Assembly: GCA_965205975.1 (NCBI GenBank)
Contig: OZ242195.1
Location: forward strand, 1,440,001-1,504,000
Reading direction: 5' to 3'
Source: Candidatus Latescibacterota bacterium
GTDB lineage: Bacteria > Latescibacterota > UBA2968
DNA: 64,000 nt
In this document: piece by piece, positions 30,001 to 42,000 of the stretch
Position numbering within the stretch: the stretch's first letter is position 1
Layout: each line of letters starts with the position of its first letter
Position numbers: made by a program

Positions 30001-33000
30001 ACAGGGCCAGCCTGGCGGGTTATTTCGCAGTCCCGTTGTTCAGCTCTGGGCTTACGACAAGCAGTTTGTGGGCGAACATCATTCCCTTCTCAAAAAGGGC
30101 ATGCCCCTGTATCTCCAGAATGATTTGAGTACCGATATGACCTCTGCGTTTTATTCGAGCCAACGACGCGGTGGCGGGCGTGGTGGACCAGGCGGTCGCG
30201 ATGGTCCTGGTGGTCGCGGTGGTCCCGGTGGTCCCGGTGGTCGCTTCGGGTCGGGCGGGGGATCGGGTGCTGCCTGGGATACGTTGATTGCGAAAATGCA
30301 GCGAAAGTCGTTTGCCGATTTGAATCCCGAAAATCAAGCCGGCCTCTACCGCCAGGTTCTCGACGCCAAGGGACCCGCACTTTTTCAAATGATGGAATCT
30401 TTTTTGGGTGAGGAAACATTTCGCACGGTCTTAGACGACATAGACCACAATCACAAATACGAGGACATCGATTTTTCGACCTTCGAACGCGCCGCTGTGG
30501 GCGATACCACAGAAAGTGAAGAGAATCAAAAATTGCAACGCCTCGTCAACGACTGGCTTTTTAGTACAGAAATCCCGGGCTATACCCTCACAAGAGTCAA
30601 AGCTCTGAAGATGGACGACGGCTTTGGAATGGTGGTCTATCAATTGATTCTACGGATTAAGAATAGCGAACCGGGCAGGGGATATGTGCAAATTACAGCT
30701 ACGGGGCGGGGCGATGAAGCCCTGAAAGGCGTCGAAATTGAAGGTGGACAGGAAATTGAAGTTTCAATGGTTTTGTGGGAACAGCCCTTCAGGGTGATGG
30801 TCGAACCCTTTTTTGCACGCAATCGGCGGCCTCTGATGTCCCCCGTGCGCGTCCCCGAAGATGTCACAGAGGGCTTTCCGGTCGCTTATGTCAAAGACGT
30901 GACGGGCGAAGATTCTGGCCCTCTTGAAATTATTGTAGATAATGACGACGACGGATTTTCAATGCCCGTGCGGCGCGCAACGCGCTACTTTCGGCCTGGA
31001 CTCAAAGGCGGCAACTGGCGCGAACAGGGCCTGCCAATGGCTTTTGGACGATTTGAGACAAATTATCGAAGAAAGTCCCCAGGGGATGGTGCACAGCCGG
31101 CTGTGTGGACAGCGCAAATTCCCAGAGACGGCGAGTTTGATGTAAGTTTCTATTTTGTCGATCCCGCAATGGCCAGGCGCATTCGAATTGCATCGACCTT
31201 TACACTCACTATTTTTCACGGGGGCAAAGCCGATACACTCGAAATAGAACGCGACCAGATGAAAGCGGGATGGAATTATCTGGGGCGATACAAATTTGCC
31301 GAGGGCGAAGAAGCTGTAGTTGAATTGTCCGACCGCGCAGAGAGGGGGCTCTATGCCGATGCCGTGCGATGGCGCTTTTTTGATCCGCAAAACCCCGATG
31401 CCTACGAAGATGAAATGCCCACTTTTACTGGACGCGGCAGAGGTGGACCAGGTGGCGGGGATGGTAGGCGAGGCGGCGGGGATGGTAGGCGAGGTCCCGG
31501 TGGTAACAGGGGTGGCGGCGGATTGTTGGGATTTTAATTTTCATCCGCAGAATGAAGGCGAGTAATGCGAGCATGAACGCAGATGGACGCAGATAATTTG
31601 AGAAATAGCAACCACAATGGAGGATGGCCGTGAAGTTTGATTTTTGCTCAAAACTATTGTTGGTAATTGTCTTTTGTGGGATAGTCGCCTGTGATCAACA
31701 GGCGGAACAGCGCACCGTTGACCTGACGGTTCCCGTTACTGTTCAATCCGTAGAGACGGGAACAATTGAATCCATTGTGACAGCGACCGGAACCCTCAGA
31801 CCAGTGCGCGAAGCCCAGATCACAACGGAGATTCGGGGAAGTCTGTACTGGAGCAAAGGGAGTAATAACCGCTTGCTCTCCAAGGGGTCAGAGGTTAGAA
31901 GGGGACAGACTATAGCCAGACTCGACAGCGATGAATGGGTTGTTGGTGCGCGGGTAGAAGCGCGCAAACTGGCGGTTGAAACAGCCAAACGAACGCTAAA
32001 AGAGCAGGAAACCCTGTTTAGCCGACAACTTTCAACGGAAATGGCCGTTGAAAGTGCGCGTAGAGCCTGGGCCGATGCAGAAGCCAATTATCAGGATGCC
32101 CTCATCAAGATCGATAAAACTAAGCTATTAGCCCCCATTCAGGGCGTGCTGTCGGAACTTGCGGATATTACGCAGGGAACGCTGGTGACGCCAAATACCG
32201 CAATCGCAAAAATTATGGATTATTCACAGGTATTTGTCGATCTGAAAATTCCCAATGCCCAGATTATTAATGTGAAATTGGGCCAGGGTATCCGCGTGAG
32301 TAATTACGCTTTGCCCGAAGAAGTTTTTGAAGGTGAGATTGTCGAGATGGATCCGGCTATCGATCCGGTCACGCGTACAGTTCAGGTCGTCGGTATGGTA
32401 GATAATCCCGACTTGCTTTTGCGGGCAGGCATGTTTGTCAAAACAGAAATAGTCACGGAATCGAGGCAAAATGTCGTACTTATTGCGCGCAATCTCGTTT
32501 TGCGGCGGAGAAATCAGAAGGTCGTTTTTGTCGAAGAAGAAGGACGCGCACAACAACGCGAAGTCGAAACCGGACTGGAAGACCGCGATCGCGTGGAAAT
32601 TGTGGTTGGACTTGAACCGGGAGACCAATTGATCACGAGCAATTACGAAACACTGAGGACGCGCACCCGGGTACGGGTCACGGGAGATAGCCGATGAATT
32701 TGCCTGAATTTTCAACGCGATATCCCGTGACAATTGCCATGGCGACCCTTGCAGTGGTGTTGCTCGGCTGGATATCGCTGGACGGTTTGGGCACTGATCT
32801 CTTGCCCGATTTGCAAACACCTGTCGTCACCATCGACCTGACGGCACCGGGCAAATCGCCTGTCGAGATCGAAGAAAGCTATACGCGCCGTCTCGAGCGC
32901 GACGTGAGCACGATTAACGGCGTCAAGCGCGTATATTCGATTACCCGCTCTGGGCAAGCCGTGGTCATTGCGGAATTTGCCTGGGATGCGGACATGGATT

Positions 33001-39000: not shown

Positions 39001-42000
39001 GTGTATGGGTGTGATCTGGGTTGTGCAACGCATTTATCGCGCGCGTATGGCTTCTCTTGCTGAGATCGGCAATATTGAACATCTCGAAATTCGCAATCTG
39101 ACCAAAATTTACGGCGCGCCGGGACGATTTAAGCACGAATGGGATCGCTTTAAGCGGCGTCATCAGCGCCTTTTAGAGCGCGGGCAGGTATTGGTAGATA
39201 AAAAGGCGATTAAGGACAGTTTGTGGTGGAAGTTACCACTTTTGGCACTTATGACCTATTTGGAAACCTATTTTGAACAGGGAACCTGGATCTTTTTGAC
39301 CGCGCTTGCTATGTGGGGCCTTGTACATCACCTCGTGCTATGTGCAGCTGCTTTGCGCGATTTTCGGATCGAGAATAGATGGATATCACAAATCGCCCGA
39401 TTGATTTTGCCGCTGGTCTTTGTGGCCTTTGTGCATTGGCGTTTGGAACTTATATCTTTGACTATAGCCACCAGTGCGATCTATTTGCTCTATCGCATTG
39501 TCGGATTTTTGGCAAATCGCGTTGCACAAGGACGCATTGATCCCGAGCATATACCGGGCAAATTAGGCCCTGTTAAAGGCATCGTGTACCGCGGAGCTGC
39601 CGCCATTCCCTTGATTGGGGTTCCCCGCCCACAATTCCAGGCTCTCGGAGGTGTAAGTCTCGATATTCCGCGCGGCATGTTTGGACTTCTGGGTCCCAAT
39701 GGCGCGGGCAAAACCACGCTGATGCGAATTGTGTGTCGGGTTCTGTCGTCAAATTACGGATCTGTGCTCGCCAATGGCAAAATACCGCTTACGCATCGGA
39801 ATATGCAGGGGGTGATTGGATATTTGCCGCAGCATTTTGGCCTTTATCTGCACATGTCTGCGTATAATTATCTGGAATACCGCGCGCTTTTGGAAGGATT
39901 TAAGGATGGGATGGCTCGGCGCAAGCGCGTTCAAGAATGCCTGGAACAGGTCAATCTGTGGGATAGGCGCGACGATCCGATTGGTTCGTTCTCTGGCGGC
40001 ATGAAACAGCGCGTGGGCATTGCACAAACCCTGTTGCACTTGCCGCAGATTATCGTAGTGGATGAACCGACAGCGGGATTGGACCCACTCGAGCGGATCC
40101 GGTTCAGAAATCTGCTGGCGCGATTTAGCCAGGAAAAAATCATTATTTTTTCCACACATATTGTCGAAGATATTGCGGGCAGTTGTAACCGATTGGCTGT
40201 GCTGAATCACGGTAAGGTGCTCTACACGGGAACCCCGATTGAAATGCGCGATTTGGCACGCGATAAGGTGTGGGAGGCTCTGCTGCCAGATCCGCGTTTT
40301 GAAGCGCTGGAACGCGACCTGGATATGATTACACATGTGCGCGTACCCGACGGGATTCGGGTGCGATTCCTCGCTACTGATCCCATCCCAGAAGCACATC
40401 CAGTTGCGCCCACCCTCGAAGATGCATACCTCTATCTTTTGCGACATGGCGATGAATACAAACAGGCTAACATGGCGTGAGTTGCTTTTCTTTGTCGGAA
40501 AAATGCACAGCCTGAGCATGAAAATCGTGTTTCACCGCAAAATGATTTTTATGTTTGGCGGGATTGTGGCATATTACGCAATTTTGTACGCGATTGCAAT
40601 CTGGCGTCCAGGTGAAGGACTTTCAGTTGAACAAGCCCTCCATGTATTGGTTGAAGTACCGGGCACAGTGCTTGCAGTCTATCTGACGATGGATCTGGTG
40701 TCGGGGGAGAGAGATAAGGATACGCTCGAAATTCTGTTTAGCACGGCGATCAGTCACTACGCGACGTGGGCCGTGAGAATTGTGTCGATCAGCGCTGCGC
40801 TATTTGTCACGCTGATGGCAATGAGCACGATTTCCTACTATTTTTTTGCGGAATTCCCCTACCTTCTGGGGGGATTGAATGCATGTATCCCTGCCTTTTT
40901 TATGGTGGGAGCCACATTTTTGTTTTCTGTCTTGTGTCGCAGTGGCAATGCGGCAGGTATGCTCGCCGTTGGGCTTTTGATTGCGATTTTGCTTTCGACG
41001 GAGGTGTTTGAGGATACATCGTATTACCTTTTTCTCAAGCCATTTGACCCGCCTTCAGATTTAGATACCAGCCTGTGGGTAAATCGCGTGGTCTTAAACC
41101 GCGCGGGTATTGCCATTCTCGGTATATTGTTCATTTTTCTGGCTCTGAGGCGAATGATAGAACGCGAAAAGCTATTGTGATGGCGTGCTGTTGCAAAATC
41201 CGAGAGCTAAAACCCCTGTGAATGAGTACAACTGGCAGTTTGCTATTCATAGGGATTTTTTTATTTTCTTTATCTTGCCCAAATTGCGCGATTTATATAC
41301 CTTTGCTACTTTAGCATCTTAATATCTCATCACAGGGTAGGGGAGGAGAACATTTATGCAGCCACCGCAACCGCAACAAGAAGATATACTGGTCTGGTTC
41401 CTCAAGGTTTGGGGTCAGATTGAAGCAAATTATATCAGAATCCTCACGGGATTTGGTATTGCCATTGTCGCTGCGTTGATAGTCCTGTTTTTTTATCGCA
41501 CACAAACACAACACGCAGAGGCGGCTCGCACAGCTCTCGGAGACGTTTATATCGCACTTTATGAAGGGCGCGTAGAAGATGCGCTTGCTGCATCGCAGGA
41601 AGTAATAGAAACCTACGCAGGCAAAGCCGAAGCGGGCGAAGCATTGATGGCACTGGCCAATTTGCACTATGAAGAAGGACGCATCGCAGAGGCCCAGACA
41701 TATTTTCAACAATACCTGGATGAATATCCAACAGATGGGCCATTGGGTTATGGTGCATGGTCGGGGTTGGCGTCCTGTTTTGAAAATGAAGAAAAATTTG
41801 CCGAAGCTGGTCAGCAGTTCGCATCCTTCGCAGAAGCACATCCCGGATCGCCATTTGCGCCGATAGCCCTGAAGGAAGCCGGCAGATGTTACGAACTCGG
41901 CAAAATGCCTCAGCAGGCGAGTGATGCGTATCAAAAGATCGTCAAAGAATACCATGAGTCGTCCGTCACAAGATTTGCACGCGGTCAATTGAACATGATG

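What a model noticed while it worked through the whole genome (the two positions that open the first line are those of the whole stretch)
31630..41180. RND efflux permease fused to an ABC ATPase domain, followed by a 6-TM ABC-2-like permease
g01323 (1574 aa) is a complete 12-TM RND (AcrB-like) permease (residues 1-1033) continued by about four extra predicted TM helices and an intact ABC nucleotide-binding domain (Walker A GPNGAGKT, signature FSGGMKQR, Walker B IIVVDEPT). It overlaps by 35 nt the next gene g01324, an unannotated 244-aa protein with six predicted TM helices (ABC-2-type permease-like), and follows an adaptor (g01321) and a second RND permease (g01322). The covalent link predicts a pump in which a proton-driven RND unit and an ATP-driven ABC unit work as one machine; I found no description of such a fusion.
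Evidence so far: Pfam rows: ACR_tran 6-634 and 671-1033 (397+207 bits), ABC_tran 1299-1440 (90 bits) on one uninterrupted ORF; hydropathy and motifs. Not an assembly artefact: searching only residues 1040-1574 among proteins of 865-2755 aa gave 4645 hits; of the best 120 listed most are 1540-1650 aa and all carry both PF00873 (ACR_tran) and PF00005 (ABC_tran), 40-96% identical, with source names from Latescibacterota, Gemmatimonadota, Acidobacteriota, KSB1, Calditrichota and the cultured Bacteroidota Mangrovibacterium marinum. Literature: 0 papers for RND+fused+ATP-binding cassette domain+AcrB, 0 for 'RND-ABC fusion', nothing relevant among the 10 listed of 20 for a third query.
(Added by a program. 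Inside this text positions count along the whole contig: contig position 1,440,001 is position 1 of the stretch shown here. "Call 12" and the like, gene names such as g00115 and contig names such as C1 are that model's own, and its searches are not shown. The text may have been shortened before it was handed on; [...] marks where a part breaks off. The agent that wrote the report below was given it as the finding of a first reader that could run no searches.)

Follow-up and report, generated by a model that had tools for sequence, protein, structure and literature searches.

The report
RND pump fused to split ATPase
One real, widely conserved gene joins a proton-type (RND) efflux pump to an ATP-burning ABC motor that has four membrane helices inserted inside it, and it sits in a fixed operon that supplies the rest of an ABC transporter, pointing to an unstudied export machine that ties two normally separate pump types together.

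Summary
The fusion is real: one 1574-aa ORF, 12-TM RND plus a motif-complete ABC ATPase, intact in 113 of 116 loci from several phyla, including cultured Prolixibacteraceae. (1) There are six extra helices; four lie inside the ATPase, between its first strand/A-loop Tyr1119 and the rest (171-203 aa in 79 of 79), the loop that carries Wzt's gate helix. (2) The operon starts 4.5 kb earlier, with a second, free ATPase and a NosY-fold permease capped by a zinc-site-less M1-peptidase fold and a Golvesin domain. (3) Most lineages add a TolC-type channel (74 of 91 loci); this window's clade lacks it. The 6-TM gene never occurred without the fusion (77 of 77). Best reading (0.5): a heteromeric type V ABC transporter tethered to a heterotrimeric RND pump, loading it. 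Substrate, pairing and energy coupling are inferred; the complex prediction gave no verdict. Ten literature searches found no description; TCDB was not searchable. This scan has already reported the same fusion and split ATPase on other genomes.

The parts
27149..28042 (+). NBD1: free ABC ATPase, 297 aa, DrrA/GldA-like; closest paralogue of the fused ATPase (44% identical)
   Evidence: mutual best hits in the genome; kept at 81-84% identity elsewhere in three genomes where it left the operon
28055..31537 (+). TMD1: type V (NosY-fold) ABC permease, residues 6-250, fused to a periplasmic M1-aminopeptidase fold without the zinc motif (298-879) and a Golvesin_C domain (985-1105); 1160 aa
   Evidence: AF2 model pLDDT 81.7; NosY 7o0y_E Z 20.6, rmsd 3.0, 226 aligned; Deinococcus M1 6iff_A Z 21.8, rmsd 3.3, 395 aligned; HExxH in 0 of 34; Pfam
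31624..32697 (+). Periplasmic adaptor (MFP), 357 aa, N-terminal hydrophobic stretch ending in a lipobox-like Cys
   Evidence: TIGR01730 184.7 bits over cut-off 94.9
32694..35759 (+). RND1: unfused 12-TM RND permease, 1021 aa, 29% identical to the RND part of the fusion
35756..38854 (+). RND2: 12-TM RND part of the fusion (residues 1-1033); D400, R977, T982 invariant
38885..39031 (+). Linker hairpin, two extra TM helices (about residues 1044-1092)
   Evidence: mean hydropathy 1.37 and 1.46 over 50 aligned sequences, short low-charge loop between; AF2 helices
39080..39112 (+). First strand and A-loop of the fused ATPase (residues 1109-1119; K1117, Y1119)
   Evidence: strand 235-245 of the model; aligns with residues 1-2 onward of free NBDs, e.g. 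1vpl Z 26.1, rmsd 1.8, 231 of 238 aligned over model 234-689; K and Y in 79 of 79
39113..39634 (+). Insert inside the ATPase (about residues 1120-1293): basic amphipathic helix, four TM helices as two hairpins, second basic helix
   Evidence: R1124, F1125, W1129, G1268, P1285, G1288 conserved
39635..40480 (+). Core and C-terminal domain of the fused ATPase NBD2 (residues 1294-1574): Walker A, Q-loop, signature, Walker B with catalytic Glu1437, D-loop, H-loop
   Evidence: each 109 of 109; signature, Walker B and H-loop 331 of 331, Walker A 325 of 331 by pattern
40446..41180 (+). TMD2: 244-aa six-helix ABC-2-like permease (g01324)
   Evidence: weak profile match to TMD1 over 170 columns (probability 18.7%, E 0.0013); 77 of 153 genomes, all among the 81 with the fusion

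Best explanation
The operon encodes one envelope export machine in two stages. Stage 1 is a heteromeric type V (ABC-2/NosY-like) ABC transporter: two different ATPases (free NBD1 and the fused NBD2) and two different permeases (TMD1, which carries a catalytically dead M1-peptidase fold and a carbohydrate-binding-like Golvesin domain in the periplasm, and the 6-TM TMD2). Stage 2 is an RND pump built from two different subunits (RND1 and RND2) with the adaptor and a TolC-type channel, which is in the operon in most lineages and borrowed from elsewhere in this clade. The fusion is the tether: with one RND2 per trimer, as in MdtB2C1, each pump carries exactly one NBD2, which pairs with NBD1. ATP-driven closure of the ATPases works the ABC stage, which captures or flips a membrane-associated substrate (most likely a lipid-linked glycan or peptide conjugate) and hands it to the RND, which uses the proton gradient to push it out through adaptor and channel. 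The four-helix insert sits in the loop that carries the substrate-entry gate helix of Wzt and would move with each ATP cycle, acting as the gate or lever between the two stages. SHOWN (sequence or model): fusion, split ATPase, intact motifs, folds of TMD1, loss of the zinc motif, gene order, co-occurrence. INFERRED: subunit pairing, 2:1 trimer, hand-over, proton use, role of the insert, substrate class.
For: Fixed gene order NBD1-TMD1-(OMF)-MFP-RND1-RND2/NBD2-TMD2 in the 36 loci of the own phylum and the 80 named loci; one ORF in 113 of 116 loci, TMD2 next door in 105 of 106 with room. TMD2 in 77 of 153 genomes, all among the 81 with the insert; the four exceptions are 84-88% complete assemblies of 170-980 contigs; 34 of 52 high-quality genomes have each. 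NBD1 and NBD2 are each other's nearest paralogue in the genome and both keep the catalytic residues, so two ATPases and two permeases are on hand, the count of one ABC transporter. NBD1 lies 13.8-14.5 kb upstream of NBD2 on the same strand in five of five named genomes tested. Where NBD1 (three genomes) or TMD2 (G076) left the operon it was kept. TMD1 has the NosY fold. Lys+Arg counts alternate as the six-helix topology requires, leaving both ATPase halves in the cytoplasm: 0.5 and 0.06 and 1.1 in the three outer loops against 3.4, 9.2, 5.9 and 9.9 in the inner ones. [quoted passage not shown]
Against: No substrate clue: flanking genes are lineage-specific housekeeping genes (largest recurring clusters 15 and 11 of 116 loci, a U32 peptidase and pantoate ligase). 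The model of 875-1565 has pTM 0.50, so the packing of insert, RND and ATPase is not resolved. Both RNDs have only one of AcrB's two TM4 aspartates and no TM10 lysine (AcrB numbering recalled), so proton use is not assured. The window's whole clade (17 of 17 loci) lacks the operon's channel and no orthologue was found in the 21 genomes of the genus (best 22-24% identity, against 43-44% for true orthologues), which sits awkwardly with obligatory export across the outer membrane. In G017 the relocated NBD1 follows a MacB/FtsX permease gene by 72 nt, so its retention there could have another cause. TMD2 passes no curated family cut-off. The similarity of the insert to the Wzt gate helix is one of position only.
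Confidence: 0.5

Rival explanations
1. The ABC module moves nothing across the membrane. Like NosDFY it is an ATP-driven mechanical transducer: its cycle swings the periplasmic pseudo-peptidase/Golvesin cap, which binds a periplasmic peptide or glycan and loads it into, or switches on, the tethered RND pump.
For: The best membrane-domain match of TMD1 is NosY (Z 20.6, rmsd 3.0, 226 aligned). NosDF2Y2 uses ATP to pass copper between periplasmic proteins, with NosD standing in the periplasm (PMC13685413, passages). The cap is about 820 residues, keeps the M1 fold, lacks HExxH in 34 of 34 yet holds invariant polar residues (H529, E571, P592, E599), as a binding site would. RND pumps collect substrates from the periplasm (established knowledge).
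Against: A type V fold is shared by true exporters (Wzm, DrrB/C), so the NosY match does not discriminate. It does not by itself explain a conserved four-helix insert on the cytoplasmic ATPase.
Confidence: 0.25
2. The fusion is only an assembly or co-localisation device: an ABC transporter and an RND pump with separate substrates became linked by read-through of adjacent genes and work side by side without coupling.
For: Gene order suggests an RND cassette placed between two halves of a duplicated ATPase-permease unit, the last RND gene abutting NBD2. Frame breaks inside the insert occur in 2 of 116 loci (L011, L170), and some database proteins begin inside the linker or insert (P0142, P0144, P0205); these could be real splits.
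Against: No lineage with a fixed split form turned up: full-length representatives are 1550-1594 aa, the search among shorter proteins gave 10 hits among 4004 candidates, most of them partial RND-ABC proteins. A 171-203-aa membrane insert inside the ATPase has been kept at 21-30% identity between clades with invariant residues, which an incidental tether would not need.
Confidence: 0.15
3. ATP replaces the proton gradient: NBD2 drives the RND trimer directly through the inserted helices, and the proton relay is vestigial.
For: Both RND subunits carry Asn in place of AcrB's second TM4 aspartate and TM10 lysine (numbering recalled). MmpL7, which works with DrrABC, is reported to lack the relay (PMC11539658).
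Against: The first TM4 aspartate is kept in 436 of 437 RND2 sequences and the TM11 Arg/Thr in 109 of 109. The same Asp-Asn pattern occurs in 9 of the 17 other RND proteins of this genome, and Asn-Asn in TM10 in 10 of 17, none fused to an ATPase. Two dedicated ABC permeases travel with the fusion.
Confidence: 0.07
4. The fusion is a mis-assembly or a missed stop codon.
For: None beyond the rarity of such fusions.
Against: One ORF in 113 of 116 loci, including four cultured isolates; 36 of 251 genomes sampled from the order of Mariniphaga; 81 of 153 in the own phylum.
Confidence: 0.01

Closest known systems
MmpL7 (RND) + DrrABC (type V ABC) in mycobacterial PDIM export (PMC11539658)
   Same: An RND protein and a heteromeric type V ABC transporter needed in one export pathway; two different 6-TM permeases; NBD2 and NBD1 score best on the DrrA and GldA models (under cut-off).
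   Different: There the proteins are separate, one ATPase type, no adaptor or TolC channel, and MmpL7 is reported to lack the proton relay. Here the RND is of the AcrB/Mdt type with an adaptor, is fused to one of two ATPases, and keeps the TM4 aspartate.
MdtABC-TolC / MuxABC (two-permease RND pumps; MdtB2C1; PMC7015380)
   Same: Adaptor plus two RND paralogues in tandem; MdtB is the best solved-structure match of RND1 (9lyq_B, E 1.4e-92).
   Different: No ABC parts in Mdt/Mux. RND1 and RND2 score far under the MdtB/MdtC cut-offs, are 29% identical, and other RNDs of the genome are closer to RND1 than RND2 is.
TC 3.A.1.145, ABC-2 permease::M1 aminopeptidase fusion (Myxococcus Q1D520; PMC3924187)
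   Same: ABC-2 permease fused to an M1-family domain, about 1200 aa.
   Different: Described with 13 TM segments and a zinc-dependent peptidase domain; here the permease is split into two six-helix proteins, the M1 fold has no zinc motif, a Golvesin domain follows, and an RND pump is attached.
NosDFY (type V ABC complex of N2O-reductase maturation; PMC13685413)
   Same: Membrane fold of TMD1; large periplasmic module on top of the permeases; NosF is among the nearest solved ATPases (E 2e-28).
   Different: NosY is a homodimer with a separate beta-helical NosD; no RND; copper client.
Wzm-Wzt gate helix (PMC6379404) and CFTR NBD1 regulatory insertion, residues 404-435 (PMC2217481)
   Same: Insertions in the N-terminal strand region of an ABC ATPase, next to the adenine-stacking aromatic residue.
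   Different: Both are short and cytosolic (one helix; about 30 mobile residues). The insert here is 171-203 aa with four membrane helices. NBD2's core is a paralogue of NBD1; no homology to Wzt's helix was tested or shown.
MacAB-TolC (type VII ABC tripartite pump; PMC8277102)
   Same: ATPase fused to a membrane protein, with adaptor and outer-membrane channel.
   Different: MacB's ATPase is fused to its own four-helix ABC permease; here it is fused to an RND. The review states that only type IV and type VII ABC transporters take part in tripartite assemblies (passage); the permeases here are type V-like.

Membership tests
RND superfamily (AcrB/AcrD/AcrF, PF00873) | 12 TM helices with two large periplasmic loops; PF00873 over cut-off | tested here: met
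   RND2 599.9 bits, RND1 772.3 bits, cut-off 28; 12 hydropathy peaks each
RND superfamily, proton-driven pumps | TM4 aspartate and TM11 Arg/Thr of the proton relay (AcrB D407, R971, T978; numbering recalled) | tested here: met
   RND2 D400, R977, T982 109 of 109; Asp 436 of 437; RND1 36 of 36
AcrB-type HAE-1 pumps | Second TM4 aspartate and TM10 lysine (AcrB D408, K940; recalled) | tested here: not met
   Asn (or Ser) at both places in RND1 and RND2; same pattern in many unfused RNDs of the genome
MdtABC / MuxABC | MdtB and MdtC equivalog cut-offs | tested here: not met
   RND1 401 and 364 bits, RND2 334 and 286 bits against cut-offs 1774 and 1584
MdtABC / MuxABC | Heterotrimer of 2:1 stoichiometry | not testable with these tools
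   Trimer exceeds the size limit of the complex predictor
Tripartite RND pump | Adaptor and outer-membrane factor | tested here: inconclusive
   Adaptor present. OMF (PF02321) in 74 of 91 loci, but in none of 17 of this clade; three distant OMF-like proteins elsewhere in the genome
ABC ATPase (PF00005) | Walker A, Q-loop, signature, Walker B with catalytic Glu, D-loop, H-loop, A-loop aromatic | tested here: met
   109 of 109 each; A-loop Tyr 105, Phe 4
ABC ATPase (PF00005) | Contiguous N-terminal strands, a few residues between A-loop and the next strand | tested here: not met
   177 residues in the window, 171-203 in 79 of 79 rows, against 6-8 (counted from the residue before Tyr) in 33 of 34 free NBD1 proteins; the fold is still completed in the model
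Type V (ABC-2) ABC transporter | Six-helix permease with NosY/Wzm fold: TMD1 | tested here: met
   7o0y_E Z 20.6, rmsd 3.0, 226 aligned, model 6-250
Type V (ABC-2) ABC transporter | Six-helix permease with NosY/Wzm fold: TMD2 | tested here: inconclusive
   Six hydropathy peaks; sub-cut-off ABC2_membrane hits in 13 and 12 of 79; weak profile match to TMD1; no PDB sequence hit; not folded alone
Type V (ABC-2) ABC transporter | ATPase-permease assembly of 2 + 2 | not tested
   Four genes of the right kinds are present; physical assembly was not established
M1 aminopeptidases / TC 3.A.1.145 | M1 fold | tested here: met
   Foldseek E 7.6e-19 to IRAP; 6iff_A Z 21.8, rmsd 3.3, 395 aligned; profile match to an HExxH-bearing M1-like protein, probability 95.7% over 390 columns
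M1 aminopeptidases / TC 3.A.1.145 | HExxH...E zinc motif and GAMEN motif | tested here: not met
   0 of 34 for either pattern; the only conserved His column in 295-880 is H529
TCDB entries for RND or ABC fusions | An entry describing an RND fused to an ABC ATPase | not testable with these tools
   TCDB is not searchable here; two TCDB-based genome surveys (PMC6281302, PMC3924187) showed no such passage for the terms searched

The most novel reading that the evidence does not exclude
A dual-energy transporter of a new class: a single polypeptide that is both an RND proton antiporter subunit and an ABC ATPase, whose ATPase is itself a membrane protein through four helices inserted in its A-loop region; ATP binding moves those helices and mechanically couples a type V ABC transporter with a periplasmic pseudo-peptidase receptor to an asymmetric RND trimer, so that both ATP and the proton gradient are needed for each export cycle. 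It is ancient and widespread in Bacteroidota and allied phyla, gut Bacteroidaceae included, and can be tested in cultured strains.
Probability: 0.4. Interest if true: 0.92.

Novelty: categorically new. Interest (0 to 1): 0.76.

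Why it matters
RND (secondary, proton-driven) and ABC (primary, ATP-driven) exporters are taught as alternative engines for tripartite pumps. 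A conserved covalent hybrid would be the first physical case of the two in one machine, would give a structural handle on the RND-plus-ABC cooperation so far only inferred genetically (MmpL7/DrrABC), would extend tripartite systems to type V ABC transporters, and shows that the ABC ATPase fold tolerates, and has long kept, a four-helix membrane insert beside its adenine-binding residue. It occurs in cultured Prolixibacteraceae and in Bacteroidaceae, so genetics and cryo-EM are within reach. The label 'categorically new' refers to the architecture; every part belongs to a known family, function is unproven, and a database entry that I could not search (TCDB) may exist.

Tried and rejected
Complex prediction of TMD1 (1-285) + TMD2 + fused ATPase with insert: verdict 'no answer' (median 0.48; control with TMD1 replaced 0.45; unrelated partners 0.00); not used for or against. 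Full-length alignment as a locus query drew only generic patterns; 56 viral-contig loci, none a full fusion by matched range. Plasmid collection: no match to the linker/insert. ESM Atlas with residues 1100-1330 returned only ABC_tran clusters, no structure search. PDB sequence search with the TMD2 profile: 0 hits. Promoter and terminator scans were at chance level (26 vs 20.5, 24 vs 21.0). RNA runs: 14 metatranscriptomes with shares of 0.05-0.10; three laid (X1, X2, X5) cover 29-30 of 30 bins in pieces mostly 90-95% alike, all as contigs, so they show relatives in RNA libraries but not transcription, level or a single transcript. Neighbourhood clustering gave no shared substrate pathway. A strict TM4 pattern matched only 145 of 331 proteins; a looser one showed this was the pattern's fault (436 of 437). 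The idea that NBD1 is dispensable (missing from locus L002) was rejected. The idea that G053 has the operon without the fusion was rejected: its contig ends inside RND2. A pattern search for an E. coli-type dif site found nothing. Ten literature searches listed no paper on this fusion; the library lacks most subscription journals.

Full report
1. Observation. Window 35756-40480 (+) is one open frame of 1574 codons. Pfam places ACR_tran (599.9 bits, two stretches) and ABC_tran (1299-1440, 91.1 bits) on it; twelve hydropathy peaks lie in 11-1026 and the three ATPase motifs are at 1313, 1412 and 1432. The next gene starts at 40446, overlaps by 35 nt, is 244 aa and has six peaks. An adaptor and a second RND gene precede it with 4-nt overlaps.

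2. Not an artefact. Residues 1030-1330 found 1259 proteins among the 8000 candidates scored; of the 120 listed, 119 carry both PF00873 and PF00005, the exception being a partial protein. A profile of linker and insert matched 81 of 153 genomes of the own phylum and 36 of 251 sampled from the order of Mariniphaga. Of 116 loci in hand (chosen for holding the junction, at least one held twice), 113 have RND, insert and ATPase in one ORF; one is cut by a contig end and two have a frame break in the insert.

3. The ATPase is split by membrane helices. The free ATPase upstream begins with its first strand, the A-loop tyrosine, seven residues, then the strand before Walker A. In the fusion the same first strand and tyrosine are at 1109-1119 and the next strand is at 1294-1305: 177 residues apart, 171-203 in 79 of 79 aligned relatives, against 6-8 in 33 of 34 free NBD1 proteins (counted from the residue before the tyrosine; the outlier is frameshifted). 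K1117, Y1119 and W1129 are invariant in those 79. An AlphaFold2 model of residues 875-1565 (33 sequences; pLDDT 74.9, pTM 0.50) makes 1109-1119 a strand followed by one cytosolic helix, four long helices and a further helix before the ATPase resumes; structural alignment puts residues 1-2 of solved free ATPases on model residues 232-235, that is 1106-1109 (1vpl: Z 26.1, rmsd 1.8, 231 of 238 aligned). So the extra helices are six: a hairpin after RND helix 12, then two hairpins inside the ATPase. Lys+Arg counts over 50 sequences alternate as this topology needs (outer loops 0.5, 0.06, 1.1; inner segments 3.4, 9.2, 5.9, 9.9). I noted this before consulting the scan's earlier notes. The low pTM means the model does not say how insert, RND and ATPase pack.

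4. The unit is a six- or seven-gene operon. The order NBD1, TMD1, (outer-membrane factor), adaptor, RND1, RND2-NBD2, TMD2 recurs in the 36 loci cut from the own phylum, as far as contigs reach, and from TMD1 onward in the named loci; NBD1 lies 13.8-14.5 kb upstream of NBD2 in five of five named genomes tested. TMD2 follows in 105 of 106 loci with room. Across 153 genomes TMD2 was found in 77, all among the 81 with the insert; the four without it are 84-88% complete drafts (kin are not independent). NBD1 and NBD2 are 44% identical and each other's nearest paralogue in the genome. Three genomes of the genus have moved NBD1 elsewhere but keep it at 81-84% identity. A TolC-type gene (PF02321) sits between TMD1 and the adaptor in 74 of 91 loci that show both; the 17 without it are all of the window's clade, and a search with that protein found orthologues (43-44% identity) in 2 of 61 relatives and only 22-24% matches in the 21 genomes of the genus.

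5. TMD1 is a type V permease with a dead peptidase cap. Its model (pLDDT 81.7, pTM 0.74) matches NosY over 6-250 (Z 20.6, rmsd 3.0, 226 aligned) and M1 aminopeptidases over 298-879 (6iff_A Z 21.8, rmsd 3.3, 395 aligned), with a Golvesin_C domain at 985-1105 related to the C-terminal module of xanthan lyase (E 3e-11). Neither HExxH nor a GAMEN-type pattern occurs in any of 34 sequences; a profile alignment to an HExxH-bearing protein (probability 95.7%) puts the motif on a variable helix near 632-641. TMD2 has only sub-cut-off ABC-2 hits (13 and 12 of 79) and a weak match to TMD1; its fold was not tested alone.

6. Both engines look intact, with a caveat. Every catalytic ATPase residue is invariant in 109 aligned fusions. 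RND2 keeps the TM4 aspartate in 436 of 437 sequences and R977/T982 in 109 of 109; RND1 likewise. Both have Asn where AcrB has its second aspartate and its TM10 lysine (AcrB numbering recalled), but 9 and 10 of the 17 other RNDs of this genome show the same, so this is a subfamily trait, not decay caused by the fusion.

7. Mechanism. Two ATPases and two permeases make one heteromeric type V transporter; gene order pairs NBD1 with TMD1 and NBD2 with TMD2 (inference). Two RND genes and one adaptor suggest a heterotrimer; with MdtB2C1 stoichiometry (PMC7015380, passage) one NBD2 per pump would meet one NBD1, which removes the three-versus-two symmetry clash. I put 0.5 on a relay in which the ABC stage flips or captures a membrane-associated conjugate and hands it to the proton-driven RND, 0.25 on a NosDFY-like loader that moves only the periplasmic cap (PMC13685413, passages), 0.15 on a tether without coupling, 0.07 on ATP replacing protons, 0.01 on artefact. 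The insert occupies the loop that in Wzt carries the gate helix, which sits at the permease interface, is basic, and moves about 8 A on ATP binding (PMC6379404, passages); the insert starts and ends with basic helices, hence the gate-or-lever proposal, which rests on position alone. Against the export reading: no substrate pathway travels with the operon and this clade has lost the dedicated channel.

8. What is known. Closest functional precedent: MmpL7 with DrrABC, separate proteins, both needed for one lipid (PMC11539658, abstract and passages). Closest for the ABC half: TC 3.A.1.145, a 13-helix ABC-2::M1 fusion (PMC3924187, passage). Insertions at this place in an ATPase: Wzt's helix and CFTR's 404-435 segment (PMC2217481, abstract and passages), both short and cytosolic. 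A 2021 review says only type IV and type VII ABC transporters join tripartite assemblies (PMC8277102, passages from the first 300,000 of 747,818 characters). Ten searches listed no paper on an RND-ATPase fusion; passages of a TCDB-based survey of seven Bacteroides species showed none (PMC6281302). JGI labels the proteins with two joined automatic names. TCDB itself and most subscription journals were out of reach, and no supplements were read; the closed supplements of bioRxiv 10.1101/573055 may hold fitness data for a Bacteroides copy.

9. Earlier notes of this scan. Look-alike stretches exist in 30 windows of 30 genomes; the eight notes shown report the same fusion, the seven-gene operon and, in two, the split ATPase; one reports the dead-peptidase permease and a copy in B. 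thetaiotaomicron, which I could not confirm. They gave me the MmpL7/DrrABC, Wzt and CFTR comparisons, each then read in the papers. They are not independent support. What this window adds is the six-gene form without the outer-membrane channel, the strict co-occurrence with TMD2, and retention of NBD1 after relocation.

10. Verdict. Observation confirmed and extended; interpretation partly supported. Architecture apparently undescribed; function inferred. Interest 0.76.

Noticed in passing
window 42097 and 42493-42520: The whole-genome cumulative G-C skew peaks at window 42,097 (minimum 2.68 Mb away), so the replication terminus lies just after the operon. A 28-mer of dif-like layout (11-6-11) is at 42493-42520; the likeness rests on a recalled consensus and was seen by eye, a pattern search for the E. 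coli form found nothing.
   Followed up: partly
window 41356-42018 (+): 220-aa membrane-anchored TPR protein (YbgF/BamD-like, under cut-off) follows the operon here and lies 1-2 genes downstream in several relatives; not seen with the operon in the other clade.
   Followed up: partly
window 42139-42366 (+): 75-aa coiled-coil protein with a C-terminal hydrophobic helix, only sub-cut-off Pfam hits (XhlA and others), between the skew peak and the dif-like site.
   Followed up: partly
window 42611-43219 (-): 202-aa excisionase-like HTH_17 protein with a long coiled coil, in an AT-rich stretch (GC 0.40) beside the dif-like site.
   Followed up: no
window 21937-25272 (+): 1111-aa secreted-looking protein with five lamin-tail domains in near-duplicated blocks and a C-terminal FlgD-like domain.
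   Followed up: partly
window 26130-27011 (+): FdhD-family gene directly upstream of NBD1; shared by four loci of the same family only, so probably not part of the system.
   Followed up: partly
L173:5253-6143, L174:5325-6332, L175:5016-5957: In G017, G018 and G011 NBD1 has left the operon; in two of them it directly follows an 805-846-aa eight-helix gene, a MacB/FtsX permease in L173.
   Followed up: partly
L077 (G076): TMD2 is not next to the fusion (another membrane gene follows) but is present on a different contig.
   Followed up: partly
L011:3162-7797 and L170:7022-11723: Frame breaks inside the ATPase insert split the fusion into RND-plus-first-strand and insert-plus-ATPase; assembly error or real split not resolved.
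   Followed up: no
L114:7776-10076 (-): 767-aa M1-like protein with an intact HExxH-18-E motif lies tail-to-tail with the operon in one genome; used as the reference for the missing zinc site.
   Followed up: partly
G000:C1:2943521-2947594 and 2179626-2186053: The genome holds 19 RND proteins over 300 bits, among them a 1358-aa RND beside an outer-membrane factor and another tandem RND pair; two-RND operons are not unique to this locus.
   Followed up: no
window 20911-21807 (-): 298-aa protein without a Pfam match downstream of the sigma-54 gene.
   Followed up: no
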